Source of the DNA: an uncultured bacterium
GTDB lineage: Bacteria > Joyebacterota > Joyebacteria > Joyebacterales > Joyebacteraceae
DNA: 64,000 nt
NCBI GenBank assembly: GCA_964516845.1
Contig: CAZEXP010000001.1
Span: 124,665 to 188,664 of the forward strand
Direction: 5' to 3'
Under the pieces are notes generated by a model. That model was not told the DNA's origin, ran no database searches, and worked only from the letters and a program-made list of their open reading frames with translations. This document shows, piece by piece, positions 14,121 to 58,524 of the stretch. A program made the translations under genes and the position numbers. Positions within the stretch are counted from its first letter, which is position 1, and each line of letters starts with the position of its first letter.

Positions 14121-14245
14121 ACAGTCGTTCCTTCGGGGCGGGGTGCAACTCCCCACCGGCGGTCAAAGCCCGCGAGCGGGTCCTCCCGCAGAGCCTGTGG
14201 AATCCAGGCGCCGACAGTGAAAGTCTGGATGGGAGAAGGAACCGT
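14121..14245 (+). promoter_or_regulatory. FMN riboswitch (RFN element) aptamer
   Basis: cttcggggcggggtgcaactccccaccggcggtcaaagcccgcgagc ... ccgacagtgaaagtctggatgggagaagga matches the conserved RFN core nearly position for position. Confidence 0.85.
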
Positions 14246-51431: not shown

Positions 51432-52760
51432 GTGAGCGCGAACCTCAGTGATGCGATACGGGCGGCAGGTGTCGTGGGAGCCGGAGGCGGCGGTTTCCCG
51501 ACCCACGTCAAGGCCGAGGGCAAGGCCGATACGCTCCTCGCCAACGGAGCCGAGTGCGAGCCGCTCCTGAAGGCCGACAGCGCGATGATGAGGGCGGAGC
51601 CCGCGCGCGTGCTCGCCGGTCTTACGCTCATGCGGGACGCCGTCGGCGCCGAGCGCGCCGTCCTCGCCGTGAAACGCAAGAACCTCGACGCTCTTTCCGG
51701 ACTCCGGGAGGCGGCCGAGGCGGCGGAGGGCGTCGAACTCCTCGTCCTGGACAATGTCTATCCCGCGGGCGACGAGTTTCTGCTGGTCTTCGAGGCGACG
51801 GGACGCGTTGTCCCCGAGGGCGGGCTCCCGCTCGATGTCGGTGTCGTCGTGAACAACGTCACCACGCTGGCGCAGGTCGCTGACGCTCGCGAGGGACGCC
51901 CCGTCACGCACCGGTTCGTCACGGTGCAGGGCGAGGTGAACAGTCCCGTGACCTTGTGGGCGCCCGTCGGAACGCAGCTCTCGGCACTGCTCGATGCTGC
52001 CGGGGGACCGAAACTCGACGAGTTCTCGGTCATCGCCGGCGGTCCGATGATGGGACGCCTGGCCGACCTGACCGAACCAACCGACAAGATGCTGGCCGGG
52101 ATCATCGTGCTCCGAAACTCGCATCATCTCATCACGGTGAGGAAGGAGACCGCCGGTCACGCCCTGAAGATCGCTCGGGCCGCGTGCTGCCAGTGCATGG
52201 CGTGCACGGAGCTGTGCCCGAGGGCGCTTCTCGGCCACGACCTCCAGCCGCATCGAACCGTGCGCGCGATCCAGTACTCGATGGAGGCCTCCGAGCACGC
52301 GCACGTCACATCGGCGTATCTCTGTTGCGAATGCGGCATGTGCGAGCTCTTCGCGTGCCCGCTCGAGATCAGGCCGAGGAGGATCCTCTCGGAGCTCAAG
52401 GCCGAGCTCAAGCGGCGGGGAGTCGAGAACCCGCATCGGAGACGGGAACTCGACGCCGACGCGGTCCGGCAGTACCGACAGATCCCTTCGGCGCGGCTGG
52501 TCCAGCGTCTCGGCCTGTCTCAGTATGACGGTCCCGCCGAGGCCATCGGCGACGCGCTCCAGGCGCGGCGAGTGCGCCTGCTGATGCGCCAGCACATCGG
52601 CGCGCCGGCGGTGCCCGTCGTCGAACAGGGAGCGAGCGTGCTCGCCGGCGATGTCGTGGGTGAGATTCCTGCAGGAGCCCTTGGCGCACGCGTACACGCC
52701 AGTATCAGCGGCGAGGTGACGCGAGTCAGCACAACGGAAGTGGTCGTCGAGCGTCGATAG
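51432..52760 (+). CDS. PduS/RnfC-family Fe-S flavoprotein (Complex1_51K-like NAD(H)/FMN module + two 4Fe-4S motifs + C-terminal barrel-sandwich domain)
   Basis: GAGGGGFPTHVK...ANGAECEPLLKAD, CCQCMACTELCP and CCECGMCELFACP. GTG 51432 is 9 nt after RBS aggggac. Confidence 0.75.
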   Translation: MSANLSDAIRAAGVVGAGGGGFPTHVKAEGKADTLLANGAECEPLLKADSAMMRAEPARVLAGLTLMRDAVGAERAVLAVKRKNLDALSGLREAAEAAEGVELLVLDNVYPAGDEFLLVFEATGRVVPEGGLPLDVGVVVNNVTTLAQVADAREGRPVTHRFVTVQGEVNSPVTLWAPVGTQLSALLDAAGGPKLDEFSVIAGGPMMGRLADLTEPTDKMLAGIIVLRNSHHLITVRKETAGHALKIARAACCQCMACTELCPRALLGHDLQPHRTVRAIQYSMEASEHAHVTSAYLCCECGMCELFACPLEIRPRRILSELKAELKRRGVENPHRRRELDADAVRQYRQIPSARLVQRLGLSQYDGPAEAIGDALQARRVRLLMRQHIGAPAVPVVEQGASVLAGDVVGEIPAGALGARVHASISGEVTRVSTTEVVVERR

Positions 52761-52832
52761 CGCGCACCGCACGCGTCGACCTCGTAGAGGACACGACGTC
52801 ATGGATGACGCGACGTCGGAGAGGATGAACGA

Positions 52833-53423
52833 TTGGCGAAGAAGCGTTCTCAAATGGACGCCCCGAAGCGCGGACGACTCGAGGCGATCGCGATCATAGA
52901 GACCATCAGCATCGCCGTCGGGATCCAGATCACCGACGCGATGGCCAAGATGGCCAGCGTCGAGATCCTCGAATCGACTCCGATCTGTCCCGGCAAGTAC
53001 ATGGTGCTGGTGGCAGGCGGCGTCTCCGATGTGGAGTCCTCGCTGAAGCGTGGCATCGAGATCGGCGGGGACGTCATCGCCGACACCCTGTCGATACCTC
53101 ACGTCCATCCGGACATCTTCCCGGCCATCCTCGGCGCCGTCGACGTGGGCGAGCTGGGGGCGCTCGGCGTTGTCGAGACGTTCACGGTCGCCTCCTCGAT
53201 CCTCGCGGCTGATGCCGCGGCGAAGGCCGCACGCGTTCGTATCCTCGAGATTCGTGTCGCGAAGGGACTCGGCGGCAAGGGCTTCTTCACGATGACGGGC
53301 GAGGTGCACGAGGTGGAGGCCGCTATGGAGGCGGCTCTTCAGGTCACGAAGGAATCCGGGACGCTCGTGCGCAGCGTCGTCATCCCACGACCGCACCCGA
53401 GTCTAGCGGCGACGGTCCTGTAG
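52833..53423 (+). CDS. Tandem-domain BMC shell protein (BMC-T)
   Basis: 196 aa with two successive BMC-fold halves (AIAIIETISIAVGI... and LGALGVVETFTVASSILAADAAAKAARV...). TTG start with RBS ggagagga. Confidence 0.75.
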   Translation: MAKKRSQMDAPKRGRLEAIAIIETISIAVGIQITDAMAKMASVEILESTPICPGKYMVLVAGGVSDVESSLKRGIEIGGDVIADTLSIPHVHPDIFPAILGAVDVGELGALGVVETFTVASSILAADAAAKAARVRILEIRVAKGLGGKGFFTMTGEVHEVEAAMEAALQVTKESGTLVRSVVIPRPHPSLAATVL

Positions 53424-53455
53424 CGCGTCGCCACGCCTGCGGCGAAGGAGGAGCG

Positions 53456-53749
53456 GTGCATTTCGGCAGGGTCATCGGCTCGGTCTGGGCGACTCAGAAG
53501 GTCCCGACGCTCAAGGGCGCGCGGATGCTGATCGTCCAGCCTCTGACGCATACGCTCGAGGAGAAAGGGCAACCGCTCGTAGCCGTCGACACCGTCGAGG
53601 CTGCGCCCGGACAGATCATCTACTTCGTGATGTCGCGCGAGGCGTGCAAGGCGATGGAGGAGCGCTTCAACCCGGTCGACGCGGCGATCGTCGGCATCGT
53701 CGATGAGATATCACTGGCCGATGCAGCGATCGACGGGGGGGACGTCTGA
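53456..53749 (+). CDS. BMC-P vertex protein (EutN/CcmL family), copy 2
   Basis: GTG start with RBS ggaggag. (M)HFGRVIGSVWATQKVPTLKGARMLIV. Confidence 0.8.
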   Translation: MHFGRVIGSVWATQKVPTLKGARMLIVQPLTHTLEEKGQPLVAVDTVEAAPGQIIYFVMSREACKAMEERFNPVDAAIVGIVDEISLADAAIDGGDV

Positions 53750-53750
53750 C

Positions 53751-54023
53751 ATGTTTCTCGCACGCGTGATAGGGGAACTCGTCTCGACGATCAAGCATGA
53801 GTCGCTCCACGCCCAAACGCTGCTGATCATCGACCGGATCGATCTCGAGGACCATCAGACCGGCGCCACCCTGATAGCAGTCGATTCGGTGTCCGCGGGC
53901 GTAGGGGACACCGTGCTCGTCGTGGACGAGGGCGGCTCCGCGGCCATCGTCACCGGGCTTGCCGACCCGCCGATCAGAACGGTCATCGTCGGCATCGTCG
54001 ATCACTTCGACGTGGAGGTGTGA
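53751..54023 (+). CDS. BMC-P vertex protein (EutN/CcmL family), copy 3
   Basis: MFLARVIGELVSTIKHESLHAQTLLII...AVDSVSAGVGDTVLV. Confidence 0.8.
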   Translation: MFLARVIGELVSTIKHESLHAQTLLIIDRIDLEDHQTGATLIAVDSVSAGVGDTVLVVDEGGSAAIVTGLADPPIRTVIVGIVDHFDVEV

Positions 54024-54027
54024 CGTC

Positions 54028-54828
54028 GTGCTGAGCGAGTTCGAAGCGCGCCGCGATATCGTCGAGATCGGCCGTCGGCTCTGGCAACGCGGATACGTTG
54101 CCTCGAACGACGGCAACATCAGCGCGCGCCTCGACGGCGAACGGATACTCGTGACGCCCTCGGGCCTTTCGAAAGGCTTTCTCTCCACGACCGATCTCGT
54201 CGTTGTCACGCCCGAAGGCAGGAAGCTCTCGGGAGAGCGCGAGCCCACCTCGGAACTCCCGCTTCACCTCTCGGTCTACTCCCGTCGCGCCGACGTCGCC
54301 GGTATCGTGCACGCCCATCCACCGGTCGCGACCGGGTACGCCGTTGCTCGTGTCCCACTTGCGCAGTGCATTCTTCCCGAGGTCGTGCTGACGCTCGGGT
54401 CGGTTCCGACCGCGGACTACGCGACGCCTTCTACCTCCGCGGTTGCCGAGAGCATCGCGCGCTACGTCGACGACTACAGCGCCATACTGCTGGCGAACCA
54501 CGGGGCGCTCGCGCTCGGCAAGACTCTCTACGAAGCGTATTTCCGGATGGAGACGATCGAACACTTCGCTCAGATCGCCCTCACCGCGCGTCAGCTGGGA
54601 GGAGCATCGCCGCTGACACCGGGTGAGATCGAGGACCTCGCGGTGATCCGGGAGAAACTCGGCGTGCGAGTGCCGGAGGACAGCTGTCTGAGCTGTGGCG
54701 CGTGCACCGGCTCCGACGGCGCCGATGCCGGAACAGCGCCGTCCCGGACCGCGTCCGGCCAGGCCAGCCTCGACGAATCGCTGGTTCAGGAGGTCATGGC
54801 GGAGATCGCCCGACGTCGTTCCGGCTGA
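54028..54828 (+). CDS. Class II aldolase/adducin-family enzyme (fuculose/rhamnulose-phosphate aldolase-like) with C-terminal extension
   Basis: GTG 54028 with RBS ggagg 9 nt upstream. GNISAR, VHAHPP and LLANHGAL are class II aldolase metal and active-site motifs. About 50 extra C-terminal residues. Confidence 0.8.
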   Translation: MLSEFEARRDIVEIGRRLWQRGYVASNDGNISARLDGERILVTPSGLSKGFLSTTDLVVVTPEGRKLSGEREPTSELPLHLSVYSRRADVAGIVHAHPPVATGYAVARVPLAQCILPEVVLTLGSVPTADYATPSTSAVAESIARYVDDYSAILLANHGALALGKTLYEAYFRMETIEHFAQIALTARQLGGASPLTPGEIEDLAVIREKLGVRVPEDSCLSCGACTGSDGADAGTAPSRTASGQASLDESLVQEVMAEIARRRSG

Positions 54829-54866
54829 AAAAGGACCCGCTCCGAGCGGGCCCGGGAGGATGACGA

Positions 54867-55763: not shown

Positions 55764-55778
55764 CCTTCAGAAAAGCAT

Positions 55779-55807
55779 TTGACAGCCTCGGGCCGGCTTG
55801 CTAGGAT
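55779..55807 (+). promoter_or_regulatory. Sigma70-type promoter TTGACA-N17-TAGGAT
   Basis: Hexamers read in sequence. The next start codon is about 340 nt downstream. Confidence 0.45.
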
Positions 55808-55814
55808 GTGTCTT

Positions 55815-56150
55815 GAGGTTGTCGGCCTCGCGCCGGCAGTGCAGTCTCCGCAGCGACGCTCGAACAGCCGCCGTACCCGGTAAGGTGCGGGCGGCGACCG
55901 ACTTCGGCCGATGCATCTGCTGGTCGGCACCAGGAGAGGCGATCGCGCGGAAAGACGAGGCAAGATTCTGCAATCCGACAGCTCTCCAGGAGCGAAAGCC
56001 GGGGAAACCTGAGCGGCCTCCCGCATGCAGGCGAGGAGGCTCCGTACGGAGAGCAACCGATGACGCGAAGCACCGCGACGATGCACGACGGCGCAGCACA
56101 CAGCGTTGGAGCGCGATCGCGTGCGGGCTCCACGACGGAGGTTGTGGGTT
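55815..56150 (+). other. Long (~335 nt) GC-rich, structured 5' leader or unassigned ncRNA upstream of the HU-like gene
   Basis: No credible CDS. ORFs here on both strands are Arg/Ala-rich artefacts. Several local hairpins. Confidence 0.25.
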
Positions 56151-56507
56151 ATGACGAAAGCGGACCTTGTCGATCGCGTTGCCAGCACAACCGGACTGAC
56201 GAAGCGTGACGTCGCCGTTGTCGTTGAGGCGCTCCTTGACTCGATCAAAGACGCGCTCGCCGATCACCGGCACATCGAGATTCGGGAGTTCGGGACGTTC
56301 AAAGTGAAGCAACGCAAAGCCAGCATGAAGTACAACCCGAGAGACCGCTCGCAGAAGGTAGTCGTACCTGCGAAGATGGTCCCGGTGTTCAAGCCGAGCA
56401 AGTTCCTGAAGGAGAAGGTTAACTGGCCTGATGAGCGGGGGATCAATCCCCCCGAAGGGGGAGCAGCATCCCCGGAACCGGCCGTCGATAGCAATCCGGC
56501 GGCATGA
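56151..56507 (+). CDS. HU/IHF-family DNA-binding protein with ~25-aa C-terminal tail
   Basis: MTKADLVDRVASTTGLTKRDVAVVVEALLDSI...IREFGTFKVKQRKA...NPRD is the HU/IHF fold. ATG 56151. Confidence 0.85.
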   Translation: MTKADLVDRVASTTGLTKRDVAVVVEALLDSIKDALADHRHIEIREFGTFKVKQRKASMKYNPRDRSQKVVVPAKMVPVFKPSKFLKEKVNWPDERGINPPEGGAASPEPAVDSNPAA

Positions 56508-56515
56508 GGAGGAGT

Positions 56516-56611
56516 ATGCCGAGTCTGAAGAAGAAACGCCGCAAGAAGATGGCGAAGCACAAGCTCAAGAAGAGGCGCAGGAAGGACCGTCACAAGAAGC
56601 GTGTGCGCTAG
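56516..56611 (+). CDS. Unannotated 31-aa highly basic protein, candidate ribosomal protein bS22 (AURKAIP1/mS38-like family)
   Basis: atgccgagtctgaagaagaaacgccgc... encodes MPSLKKKRRKKMAKHKLKKRRRKDRHKKRVR. Preceded by aggagg. Not in the ORF track (below length cutoff). Resembles mycobacterial bS22 [33 protein letters not shown]. Confidence 0.55.
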   Translation: MPSLKKKRRKKMAKHKLKKRRRKDRHKKRVR

Positions 56612-56644
56612 TCCCGCCGGCGGGAATCACCGTCTGGAGGTTCC

Positions 56645-57046
56645 ATGACTGACAAGAAGCAAGGCAGCTGGGAGGGGCGGGAACGCAGGCAGTCGGCTCG
56701 CGTCAGTGCCCAGGTCGCGCTGCAGCTCGGCGGGCTTGACGATTCGATCCCGGGTGAGTCTCTGACGACCGAGAGCATCAATGTCGGCGCCGAAGGTGTG
56801 TACTGTCACGTCAGTCACTTCATCGCACCGCTGACGAAGCTCCAGCTGACGATGGTCCTCCCGATCAGGGACAAGAAGGGACAGTCGCGCAGCGAGGTCC
56901 TCAAGACGGATGCAGTGGTGGTCCGTTGCCAGCCTGCCGGGAGCGAGAGCAGTGGCTACCGGATCGCGTGTTTCTTCACGGGCCTCGAGCCCGCGGCACG
57001 CGAGGTTCTGCAGGACTACGTGCGGCAGCACGTGGCCCCCGCCTAG
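56645..57046 (+). CDS. PilZ-domain (c-di-GMP-binding) protein
   Basis: RBS ggagg. RxxxR motif (RERRQSAR) and D/NxSxxG-like motif (ESINVGAEG). Confidence 0.65.
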   Translation: MTDKKQGSWEGRERRQSARVSAQVALQLGGLDDSIPGESLTTESINVGAEGVYCHVSHFIAPLTKLQLTMVLPIRDKKGQSRSEVLKTDAVVVRCQPAGSESSGYRIACFFTGLEPAAREVLQDYVRQHVAPA

Positions 57047-57095
57047 GGGCACATACTTCGGCCGCGCGAGCGACCTCTCAAACGAAGAACAAAGA

Positions 57096-57125
57096 GAAGG
57101 CCCGACAGATTTCTGTCGGGCCTTC
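57096..57125. terminator. Bidirectional intrinsic terminator (GAAGGCCCGACAG-attt-CTGTCGGGCCTTC); T-rich tail on the minus strand
   Basis: 13-bp perfect stem between the convergent PilZ (+) and OMP (-) genes. Minus-strand reading gives the hairpin followed by tctctttgttcttcgtttg. Confidence 0.55.
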
Positions 57126-57192
57126 TTCCGTATGAGCGATGTCAGCGGCGGCACTGCCGATGTCGGCGGCGATCGACGCGACGGGGACCGCG

Positions 57193-58524
57193 TTAGAAGC
57201 GGTAGGCCGCCTCGATGATAAGGGCCGTCTCATCAACGGACTCGGTGAAATCGTAATCCTCTGCCGACCGTTCGTATGCCGCGGAAAGCCAGGCGACGTC
57301 TATCGCGAGCACGGTGTCGATCAGAATGCCCGCGCCGACCGTCCAGTACGCCCGGTCCTGATCGACCGTCAACCCGCGATACGAGATCGGCCGCGTCATG
57401 AATCCTCCGCGCACACGAATCGGCATTTCCGGTATCGTCACTTCGACGCCCGCGTTGAGATCGTGAGTCGCCTCGTACGCGTCGCGACGGTCAGCCTGGT
57501 CACCCAGGTAGACCCTTCCCTCGTACTCCATCTCGGACCAGTTGGTGTAGCGGTAGTCGCAGCCGACGATCACCAGGTCCACCGGCGACCAGCTCGCGCC
57601 CACACCGAACGTGAACGGAAGCGTCAGCTTGTCCTCGAAACTCACGACCTCGGTCTCGATGCCCCCCGAAGGACCGGTGAGTTCGTCGGTCCTGCGCTCC
57701 GTTCCGGAGAACGTCAGCGTCGTCGGGAGCGTCACCGTCGCACCGGCCGCGAGCTGATCGGTCAGATAGAAGAGCGCGCCAAGCTTGAACCCGAGACCCG
57801 CAACATCGGCTTCGCTGTCGATCGCGAGGTTGTACGTCTCGTAGTCGGCCGACACACCGTGGTCATCACGTGCCGTGTAGAGGAAGGTCCGTTCGTACGT
57901 CCCTCCAATGATCGAGACCGCCGCGCCGATCGAGACGTTCTCCGAGGCATCGAACGCCGCGGCAAGCGTCCCCGCATACATGTCGCCGTTGCTCAGCAGG
58001 TCCTCGGTCTGGCCCCAGGCTGACGTGTAGTAGAGGCTGTCGGACGGCTCGTACCAGGTCAGCGAGTCATCGTACGTCGCGAGGAAATCGGCATCCAGCC
58101 CGTACACCCTCTCGAACCCCAACCCGACCACGAGCGAACCGCGGAAAGTGGGGAACGGGTAGGCGAAGCGGAGCGCGGAAAGGCTCGTGCTCGTGATGTC
58201 GGTCTCGTATTCGCTCCCGAGCGCGTCGCCGGAACGGCCCCGCCCATCGAAGACGAAGCCGCCGGAGAGCTCCACTCGCCGCAACCGGGCGAGCGCCGCC
58301 GGGTTCGTGAGCATCGCCGAGCCGTCGTCCGCCGTTGCCAGCGCCACGCCACCCATCCCGAGCGACCTGGCCCCGGTCATCGTTGCGTTCGCGAACGGTA
58401 TCTCCGTGAGCGGCGCGACGTATCCGTCGTACGCGGACGCCGGCAGCGATCCGGTCGTGAGAGCGGCCGTGACGATGAGGGCTGCCAGGGCCGTGCGCAT
58501 CGTGCGGTCCATGAGAGTCATCAT
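57193..58524 (-). CDS. Outer-membrane beta-barrel protein (FadL/PorV-like), C-terminal aromatic residue
   Basis: Signal peptide. Alternating amphipathic beta-strand pattern. Ends ...IIEAAYRF, the typical OMP C-terminal Phe. Confidence 0.7.
   Translation of the reverse strand: MMTLMDRTMRTALAALIVTAALTTGSLPASAYDGYVAPLTEIPFANATMTGARSLGMGGVALATADDGSAMLTNPAALARLRRVELSGGFVFDGRGRSGDALGSEYETDITSTSLSALRFAYPFPTFRGSLVVGLGFERVYGLDADFLATYDDSLTWYEPSDSLYYTSAWGQTEDLLSNGDMYAGTLAAAFDASENVSIGAAVSIIGGTYERTFLYTARDDHGVSADYETYNLAIDSEADVAGLGFKLGALFYLTDQLAAGATVTLPTTLTFSGTERRTDELTGPSGGIETEVVSFEDKLTLPFTFGVGASWSPVDLVIVGCDYRYTNWSEMEYEGRVYLGDQADRRDAYEATHDLNAGVEVTIPEMPIRVRGGFMTRPISYRGLTVDQDRAYWTVGAGILIDTVLAIDVAWLSAAYERSAEDYDFTESVDETALIIEAAYRF

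What the first reader, a model, noticed from the sequence alone, without database searches (positions are those of the whole stretch)
56516..56611. Hidden 31-codon gene for a lysine/arginine-rich peptide resembling ribosomal protein bS22
MPSLKKKRRKKMAKHKLKKRRRKDRHKKRVR is encoded directly after the HU-like gene behind AGGAGG and is missing from the ORF track. The KKRRKxMxKxKxKKRR pattern matches bS22 (AURKAIP1/mS38 family), a ribosomal protein seen in mycobacterial and Bacteroidia ribosome structures.
Basis: partly seen in the sequence, partly recalled or inferred. Interest (0 to 1): 0.6.

Follow-up and report, generated by a model that had tools for sequence, protein, structure and literature searches.

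The report
Small ribosomal protein bS22 gene
The 31-codon reading frame is a real, conserved gene for the tiny, very basic ribosomal protein bS22, here in an uncultured Eisenbacteria-like bacterium; it is a routine addition to a known family and not a new kind of thing.

Summary
The ORF at 56516-56611 (+) exists and encodes MPSLKKKRRKKMAKHKLKKRRRKDRHKKRVR. It lies 8 nt after an HU/IHF-like gene, behind AGGAGG.

- **Family match:** it scores 24.9 bits against Pfam PF08213 (COX24_C, the mS38/bS22 domain), above the curated cut-off of 23. Ten shuffles of the same residues do not match.
- **Match to solved structures:** it aligns end to end, from Met1, with the bS22 chains built into the Flavobacterium, 9i5v (probably Porphyromonas) and Borrelia ribosome structures. 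A profile of 16 orthologues hits only those three of 177,635 PDB sequences (E 1e-11 to 5e-8).
- **Conservation:** the same sORF follows the HU-like gene in 34 of 80 related genome loci. These are mostly Candidatus Eisenbacteria and Gemmatimonadota MAGs. All have an ATG and a Shine-Dalgarno motif.
- **Selection:** variation is concentrated at third codon positions (9/4/19 variable columns), with 718 synonymous against 270 non-synonymous pairwise codon differences.

One nuance: the direct match is to the Bacteroidia/Borrelia type of bS22, and the mycobacterial founder is reached only by profile comparison. Ribosomal location is inferred from homologues, not shown. The family is known and its spread to more phyla was predicted, so interest is low to moderate. 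A conserved HU / bS22 / PilZ gene trio is the only mildly new point.

The parts
55779..55807 (+). Sigma-70-like promoter TTGACA-17 nt-TAGGAT (with upstream TG). It is the probable start of the HU / bS22 / PilZ transcript.
   Evidence: The consensus scan found 1 site against 0.2 expected. Both hexamers and the flanking AAAAGCATTTGACAG are conserved in all 10 aligned Eisenbacteria loci, directly after the SppA stop codon. Promoter function itself is inferred.
56151..56507 (+). HU/IHF-like DNA-binding protein gene (118 aa, with a Pro-rich C-terminal tail).
   Evidence: PF00216 E 5.9e-27. It falls below the NCBIfam equivalog cut-offs for IHF-alpha, IHF-beta and HU.
56507..56512 (+). Shine-Dalgarno AGGAGG for the sORF. 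It overlaps the last base of the HU stop codon and lies 3 nt before the ATG.
   Evidence: Read from the sequence. A GGAGG, AAGGAG or GGAG motif sits a few nt (about 3-10) upstream of the ATG in the 36 distinct upstream sequences of the related loci and the window.
56516..56611 (+). Gene for a 31-aa bS22-type small-subunit ribosomal protein (PF08213), including the TAG stop.
56645..57046 (+). PilZ-domain protein gene (133 aa), third gene of the apparent operon. GGAGG lies 4 nt before its ATG.
   Evidence: PF07238 scores 23.8 bits against a cut-off of 22.5. A homologue lies downstream of the sORF in 28 of the 40 loci that carry the sORF.
57095..57126 (.). GC-rich 14-bp hairpin between the convergent PilZ gene and the outer-membrane protein gene. 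It is a probable bidirectional terminator.
   Evidence: Terminator scan. It was scored on the minus strand; the T-run on the plus strand is weak, so its role for the plus-strand operon is inferred.

Best explanation
The sORF encodes a bS22-type ribosomal protein of the PF08213 / AURKAIP1 / mS38 family, Bacteroidia/Borrelia subtype. It appears to be transcribed with the upstream HU/IHF-like gene and the downstream PilZ gene, and it is translated from its own Shine-Dalgarno site and the ATG at 56516. By homology, the 4-kDa polycationic helix would insert into the 16S rRNA pocket formed by h2, h27, h44 and h45, next to the decoding centre of the 30S subunit. Its C-terminus would touch 23S rRNA (H68/H70), adding an intersubunit bridge and stabilising h44. 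What is shown here: the coding status, the conservation and the family membership by sequence. What is inferred from homologues with solved structures: the ribosomal location and the rRNA contacts.
For: - **Family match:** PF08213 scores above its gathering score (24.9 vs 23 bits). None of 10 shuffles reaches it.
- **Match to solved bS22 chains:** ungapped BLOSUM62 scores against the bS22 chains of 7jil, 9i5v and 8fmw and against yeast mS38 are 6.4-9.0 sd above 5000 shuffles, and no shuffle reaches them. phmmer aligns residues 1-29 to residues 1-29 of 30-aa bS22 chains, sharing M1, P2, S3, A13, H15, K16 and R25-H26-K27-K28. A profile of 16 orthologues hits only three of 177,635 PDB sequences, all of them bS22 chains, at E 9.8e-12, 1.1e-10 and 4.5e-8.
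- **Link to the mycobacterial founder:** hhalign to M. smegmatis bS22 gives probability 78.8% and E 1.7e-5 over residues 1-26. I recalled that sequence from memory; one search verified it as identical to the 5o5j/5o61 chain.
- **Conservation:** the sORF follows the HU-like gene in 34 of 80 genome loci and in all 6 metagenome loci. The ATG and a Shine-Dalgarno motif are always present.
- **Purifying selection:** in the close clade, 16 distinct DNA sequences encode only 7 peptides. Variable columns by codon position are 9/4/19. Pairwise codon differences are 718 synonymous and 270 non-synonymous, and include CGN<->AGR arginine switches.
- **Composition:** GC3 is 0.88, and Lys codons are AAG 11 to AAA 1, as in the neighbouring genes.
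- **Role of homologues:** taken from PMC7797042, PMC10618245, PMC12123416 and PMC10081302.
Against: - No experimental evidence exists for this organism, which is known only from uncultured MAGs.
- No NCBIfam model matches.
- phmmer against 1.84 billion representatives gave no hit at E <= 0.001. This is expected, because a 31-aa query cannot reach significance in a library of that size.
- AlphaFold predicts one straight helix (residues 4-30, pLDDT 95.8), not the bent helix seen on the ribosome, and Foldseek against the PDB returns nothing. Neither result can tell a bS22 fold from any other single helix this short.
- The 3-nt spacer between AGGAGG and the ATG is short.
- 46 of the 80 loci found through the HU-like protein lack the sORF within 3 kb, so the linkage is not universal.
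Confidence: 0.88

Rival explanations
1. The peptide is a conserved, translated polycation that works off the ribosome. One possibility is a protamine-like partner of the adjacent HU/IHF-like protein that condenses the nucleoid. In that case its similarity to bS22 would reflect shared nucleic-acid-binding composition or an exaptation.
For: The sORF is tightly linked to an HU-like gene: 8 nt downstream in the window, and adjacent in 34 of 80 related genome loci. It is 65% K+R.
Against: The similarity to bS22 depends on residue positions and runs end to end. It is not a matter of composition. The profile hits nothing in the PDB except ribosome-bound bS22 chains. Gene linkage is not evidence of physical partnership.
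Confidence: 0.05
2. The real product is the 35-aa form MRRSMPSL..., started at the ATG at 56504 that overlaps the HU stop codon (ATGA) and translated by coupling to HU.
For: the ORF listing reports the ORF from 56504. ATGA overlaps are a common arrangement for translational coupling. The 35-aa form still matches PF08213, at 24.5 bits.
Against: The upstream ATG is not conserved. The same position reads TTG, CTG or TAA in the closest relatives. No Shine-Dalgarno motif precedes it, whereas AGGAGG precedes 56516. All homologues and all solved bS22 chains begin at the aligned M-P/G/S/A-S.
Confidence: 0.03
3. The sORF is a regulatory leader or coupling ORF whose act of translation controls the downstream PilZ gene, and the peptide itself has no function.
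For: It lies 33 nt upstream of the PilZ gene, and a PilZ homologue follows it in 28 of 40 loci.
Against: Strong purifying selection acts on the amino-acid sequence across two phylum-level groups, with 16 invariant columns out of 31. In 12 loci the sORF is not followed by PilZ. The PilZ gene has its own GGAGG.
Confidence: 0.02
4. It is a chance open frame or non-coding sequence.
For: It is very short. No NCBIfam model matches, and the 1.84-billion-protein search gave no significant hit.
Against: See above. Conservation, the codon-position pattern, the Shine-Dalgarno site and the specific homology all contradict chance.
Confidence: 0.01

Closest known systems
bS22 of Bacteroidia (F. johnsoniae Fjoh_1533, PDB 7jil chain 5; P. 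gingivalis AAQ66340.1; PDB 9i5v chain 10 is probably the P. gingivalis chain)
   Same: Length is 30-31 aa, and both start with MPS. 18 of 29 aligned residues are identical, in an end-to-end ungapped alignment that includes M/V12-A13, H15-K16 and R25-H26-K27-K28. The orthologue profile gives E 9.8e-12 and 1.1e-10. Both are very basic: pI 12.0 here, 12.7 for Fjoh_1533 (PMC7797042).
   Different: The host lineage is Candidatus Eisenbacteria, not Bacteroidota. The window clade has L4 and K14...L17 (AKHKL) where Bacteroidia have G4 and ATHKR. This gene has a strong Shine-Dalgarno site, whereas Bacteroidia largely lack such sites (PMC7797042). No structure or proteomic evidence exists here.
bS22 of Borrelia burgdorferi (bb0822, PDB 8fmw chain V)
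   Same: 16 of 28 residues are identical, in an end-to-end alignment. Profile E is 4.5e-8. It too went unannotated because of its size (PMC10618245).
   Different: The Borrelia gene uses a GUG start and encodes 28 aa. This one uses ATG and encodes 31 aa.
bS22 of Actinobacteria (M. smegmatis MSMEG_0945, PDB 5o5j/5o61), the founding member
   Same: It belongs to the same Pfam domain (DUF1713/PF08213, per PMC10081302), has a similar length (33 aa) and shares the M-x-S-x-x-K-K-R-R-K-x-M start. hhalign gives probability 78.8% and E 1.7e-5 over residues 1-26.
   Different: phmmer does not connect the two in either direction. The C-terminal halves differ: RKDRHKKR here, [12 protein letters not shown] in M. 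smegmatis. They are different subfamilies.
Mitochondrial mS38 (Cox24 / AURKAIP1) C-terminal domain
   Same: Residues 3-29 align with the C-terminal KRKKKMKKHKLRKRRK segment of yeast mS38: 14 identities, z 6.4 against shuffles. The Pfam family is named after this protein.
   Different: mS38 proteins are 111 to more than 500 aa long, with N-terminal extensions. This gene encodes the bare domain.
Eukaryotic cytosolic eL41
   Same: By the literature, it is a short basic helix in the equivalent rRNA pocket (PMC10618245).
   Different: It was not detected by any sequence search here. It is described as a single unbent helix of about 24-25 aa. The resemblance is an analogy or a distant relationship, and I did not test it.

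Membership tests
bS22 / PF08213 (COX24_C, AURKAIP1/mS38 domain) | Scores at or above the curated Pfam gathering threshold | tested here: met
   24.9 bits against a cut-off of 23, E 1.9e-5, covering profile positions 1-29 of 33. None of 10 same-composition shuffles hits the family.
bS22 / PF08213 (COX24_C, AURKAIP1/mS38 domain) | Position-specific, end-to-end similarity to chains modelled as bS22 in ribosome cryo-EM maps | tested here: met
   phmmer gives 7jil_5 E 0.008, 9i5v_10 E 0.02 and 8fmw_V E 0.03, all aligned from residue 1. The orthologue profile gives E 9.8e-12, 1.1e-10 and 4.5e-8, with no other PDB hit. z is 7.7-9.0 against 5000 shuffles.
bS22 / PF08213 (COX24_C, AURKAIP1/mS38 domain) | Stand-alone protein of about 28-33 aa, about 60% or more K+R, pI about 12 or higher | tested here: met
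   31 aa, 65% K+R, pI 12.0, 4038 Da.
bS22 / PF08213 (COX24_C, AURKAIP1/mS38 domain) | Conserved as a protein-coding gene in related genomes | tested here: met
   Present in 34 of 80 genome loci and in 6 metagenome loci. Variable columns by codon position are 9/4/19, and pairwise codon differences are 718 synonymous against 270 non-synonymous. The ATG and Shine-Dalgarno motif are conserved.
bS22 / PF08213 (COX24_C, AURKAIP1/mS38 domain) | Detectable homology to the founding mycobacterial bS22 | tested here: inconclusive
   phmmer gives no hit in either direction. hhalign of the orthologue profile against the M. smegmatis sequence gives probability 78.8% and E 1.7e-5 over 26 columns.
bS22 / PF08213 (COX24_C, AURKAIP1/mS38 domain) | Bent alpha-helix fold | tested here: inconclusive
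   AlphaFold2 on the single sequence predicts a helix over residues 4-30 with pLDDT 95.8 and no bend. Foldseek against the PDB gives 0 hits. The bend is seen only in the rRNA-bound state, so the prediction is consistent with the fold but cannot establish it.
bS22 / PF08213 (COX24_C, AURKAIP1/mS38 domain) | Physically bound in the 30S pocket between 16S h44 and h45, contacting 23S H68/H70 | not testable with these tools
   This needs cryo-EM or mass spectrometry of ribosomes from this uncultured lineage. The location is known only for homologues.

The most novel reading that the evidence does not exclude
Bacteroidia-type bS22 sits in a conserved three-gene unit (HU/IHF-like nucleoid protein, bS22, PilZ-domain protein) across Candidatus Eisenbacteria and Gemmatimonadota. 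It lies behind a conserved promoter and, in the window's close relatives, a leader of about 340 nt. This could mean that bS22 here is not a constitutive ribosomal protein. It might instead be a regulated accessory whose level is tied to nucleoid state or c-di-GMP signalling, tuning h44 and the decoding centre (for example in dormancy or aminoglycoside tolerance). More broadly, the family's presence in these phyla as well as in Bacteroidota, spirochaetes, Actinobacteria and mitochondria would argue that bS22 is ancient and was repeatedly lost.
Probability: 0.1. Interest if true: 0.5.

Novelty: new member of a known kind. Interest (0 to 1): 0.27.

Why it matters
It adds a candidate phylum with no cultured members (Eisenbacteria), and apparently Gemmatimonadota, to the lineages that carry the supernumerary ribosomal protein bS22. 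It also shows that the gene is routinely left unnamed: it is called in public assemblies with no family recorded. The Borrelia ribosome study explicitly predicted this wider spread, so the finding confirms an expectation and does not overturn anything. Practical value: correct annotation of ribosomal protein content in MAGs; a 16-sequence profile that separates bS22 cleanly from other basic peptides; and a conserved HU / bS22 / PilZ linkage that may hint at how the gene is regulated.

Tried and rejected
- **The search of protein representatives:** the 31-mer gave 0 hits at E <= 0.001. A 31-aa query cannot reach significance against 1.84 billion proteins, so this says nothing either way.
- **The listing of cluster members:** looked up six bS22 variants, and none is in the collection. 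I presume such short proteins are excluded.
- **NCBIfam:** no model matches either the 31-aa or the 35-aa form.
- **Foldseek of the AlphaFold model against the PDB:** 0 hits. A single 31-aa helix is below what fold comparison can resolve.
- **Rfam on the whole window:** only an unrelated FMN riboswitch. Nothing was found in the HU leader or around the sORF.
- **Structure in the HU leader:** folding 55815-56150 gives z = -1.28 against shuffles, which is not significant.
- **35-aa start at 56504:** rejected because that ATG is not conserved.
- **Overlapping ORFs:** 56431-56652 (+, 73 aa) and 56264-56593 (-, 109 aa) are rejected as frame artefacts. Variation concentrates at the third codon position of the sORF frame.
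- **Literature search for a survey of bS22 across phyla:** none was found in the held library.

Full report
**1. Observation**

The frame at 56516-56611 (+) translates to MPSLKKKRRKKMAKHKLKKRRRKDRHKKRVR followed by a stop.

- It begins 8 nt after the TGA (56505-56507) of a 118-aa HU/IHF-like gene (PF00216, E 5.9e-27).
- AGGAGG lies at 56507-56512, 3 nt before the ATG.
- The window is 65% GC. The sORF has GC3 of 0.88 but GC1 of 0.44 and GC2 of 0.34, and uses AAG over AAA 11 to 1, as its neighbours do.
- It is the only 31-residue stretch in any of the six frames of the 64 kb with at least 16 K+R and at least 8 K.

"Hidden" reflects only a length cut-off. The ORF listing at 20 aa shows the frame, from an upstream ATG at 56504. 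Public gene callers have called exactly this 31-aa product in 40 blocks of metagenome assemblies, with no family attached.

**2. Family membership**

- **Pfam.** PF08213 (COX24_C, the AURKAIP1/mS38/bS22 domain) matches at 24.9 bits, above the curated cut-off of 23, with E 1.9e-5 over profile positions 1-29 of 33.
- **Composition controls.** A K/R-rich peptide could match through composition alone, so I ran two controls. Ten shuffles of the same residues gave no PF08213 hit. Ungapped BLOSUM62 scores against solved bS22 chains and yeast mS38 were 6.4-9.0 sd above 5000 shuffles, and no shuffle reached the observed score.
- **Solved structures.** phmmer against all PDB sequences puts three bS22 chains first: F. 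johnsoniae 7jil_5, 9i5v_10 and Borrelia 8fmw_V. All align from Met1 to the end. Yeast mS38 follows.
- **Orthologue profile.** A profile of 16 orthologous peptides (A1) hits exactly three of 177,635 distinct PDB sequences. They are the same three bS22 chains, at E 9.8e-12, 1.1e-10 and 4.5e-8.
- **Mycobacterial founder.** phmmer does not reach it in either direction. hhalign of the profile against the M. smegmatis sequence gives probability 78.8% and E 1.7e-5 over residues 1-26. I recalled that sequence from memory, and verified it as identical to the 5o5j/5o61 chain.

The peptide therefore belongs to the Bacteroidia/Borrelia subtype of the family.

**3. Conservation**

- **Metagenome loci.** The exact peptide occurs on many metagenome contigs with the same gene order: BMC shell, EutN, class II aldolase, SppA, HU, sORF, a 133-aa gene, then a convergent Toluene_X outer-membrane protein.
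- **Genome loci.** Searching one genome per species with the HU-like protein gave 80 loci. Most are labelled Candidatus Eisenbacteria, Gemmatimonadota or Acidobacteriota MAGs, which places the window in an Eisenbacteria-like lineage. In 34 of these 80 loci, a sORF of 29-31 codons of the same family directly follows the HU-like gene. This includes all 14 closest loci (HU 73-90% identical).
- **Start site.** All use ATG, and all have GGAGG, AAGGAG or GGAG a few nt upstream. The alternative ATG at 56504 is TTG, CTG or TAA in the closest relatives, so the 31-aa form is the product.
- **Selection.** In the close clade, 16 distinct DNA sequences encode only 7 peptides. Variable columns by codon position are 9/4/19. 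Pairwise codon differences are 718 synonymous against 270 non-synonymous, including CGN<->AGR arginine switches. Sixteen of the 31 alignment columns are invariant across both clades.

This is purifying selection on the peptide, and it also rules out the overlapping alternative frames.

**4. Genomic context**

- **Promoter.** A sigma-70-like promoter (TTGACA-17-TAGGAT, 55779-55807) is conserved in all 10 aligned Eisenbacteria loci, immediately after the SppA stop.
- **Leader.** A leader of about 340 nt follows. It is conserved only among close relatives, has no significant predicted structure (z -1.28) and matches no Rfam family.
- **Downstream gene.** The gene after the sORF is a PilZ-domain protein (PF07238, 23.8 bits against 22.5) with its own GGAGG. 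A homologue follows the sORF in 28 of the 40 loci that carry the sORF, including loci labelled Gemmatimonadota.
- **Terminator.** A GC-rich hairpin at 57095-57126 separates this unit from the convergent outer-membrane protein gene.

HU, bS22 and PilZ therefore look like one operon. This is inferred from spacing and conservation and has not been shown experimentally.

**5. Mechanism**

The mechanism is inferred from homologues. In the solved ribosomes, bS22 is a bent basic helix buried between 16S h44 and h45, and also h2 and h27 in Borrelia. It touches 23S H68/H70 at the subunit interface, near the decoding centre and the aminoglycoside site (PMC7797042; PMC10618245; PMC12123416).

In M. smegmatis, deleting the gene causes no growth defect but increases sensitivity to aminoglycosides (PMC10081302). 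In Borrelia the gene is among the candidate essential genes, because no transposon insertions were recovered in it.

I commit to the same role here: a supernumerary 30S protein that neutralises charge in the h44/h45 pocket and adds an intersubunit contact. AlphaFold predicts a confident single helix (residues 4-30, pLDDT 95.8). That is compatible with this role but not diagnostic, and Foldseek finds nothing for so small a model.

**6. Rival explanations**

- A non-ribosomal, HU-associated polycation (0.05): contradicted by the position-specific and exclusive match to ribosome-bound chains.
- A 35-aa isoform (0.03): contradicted by the non-conserved start codon.
- A leader ORF for PilZ (0.02): contradicted by selection on the peptide and by loci that lack PilZ.
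- A chance ORF (0.01).

**7. Novelty and score**

The family is known, and its Pfam model detects this peptide above threshold. [quoted passage not shown] I found no paper in the held library that reports bS22 in Eisenbacteria or Gemmatimonadota, or that surveys its phyletic spread.

This is a new member of a known kind. The HU / bS22 / PilZ linkage is a minor new observation. Interest is 0.27.

Noticed in passing
window 56151-57046 (+); loci L007-L022, L024, L026, L033, L034, L039, L070: The trio of HU/IHF-like gene, bS22 and PilZ-domain gene is conserved as a unit in 28 of the 40 loci that carry the sORF, including MAGs labelled Gemmatimonadota. In L011, L017 and L020 the PilZ homologue starts about 600 nt downstream, which suggests an inserted gene. 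Why a ribosomal protein gene is linked to a nucleoid protein and a putative c-di-GMP receptor is unexplained.
   Followed up: partly
window 55764-56150 (+): The promoter-like TTGACA-17-TAGGAT (55779-55807) is strongly conserved directly after the SppA stop codon. It is followed by a leader of about 340 nt before the HU-like gene. The leader is conserved only among close relatives and is much shorter in L015 and L020. It matches no Rfam family, and its folding z-score is -1.28.
   Followed up: partly
window 14125-14244 (+): FMN riboswitch (RF00050), 110.7 bits against a gathering score of 66.2, full length.
   Followed up: no
window about 51500-54830 (+), by correspondence with L001 1-3312: A bacterial microcompartment gene set lies upstream of SppA: an RnfC/Complex1_51K-like protein, a BMC shell protein, two EutN/CcmL vertex proteins and a class II aldolase. 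It has the same order in all six metagenome loci.
   Followed up: no
window 56151-56507 (+): The HU/IHF-like protein carries a C-terminal tail of about 27 aa rich in Pro, Glu and Gly (NWPDERGINPPEGGAASPEPAVDSNPAA). It scores below every NCBIfam equivalog cut-off for IHF-alpha, IHF-beta and HU, so it is a distinct HU-family paralogue.
   Followed up: no
PDB sequence searches: The Bacteroidia/Borrelia-type and actinobacterial-type bS22 sequences do not find each other by phmmer. Each finds mitochondrial mS38 instead. So the two bacterial subfamilies are linked in sequence space mainly through the mitochondrial protein and the Pfam profile.
   Followed up: partly
window 57193-58524 (-): A convergent 443-aa outer-membrane protein of the Toluene_X/FadL family (PF03349, from the gene tables) shares the hairpin at 57095-57126 as its terminator.
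   Followed up: no
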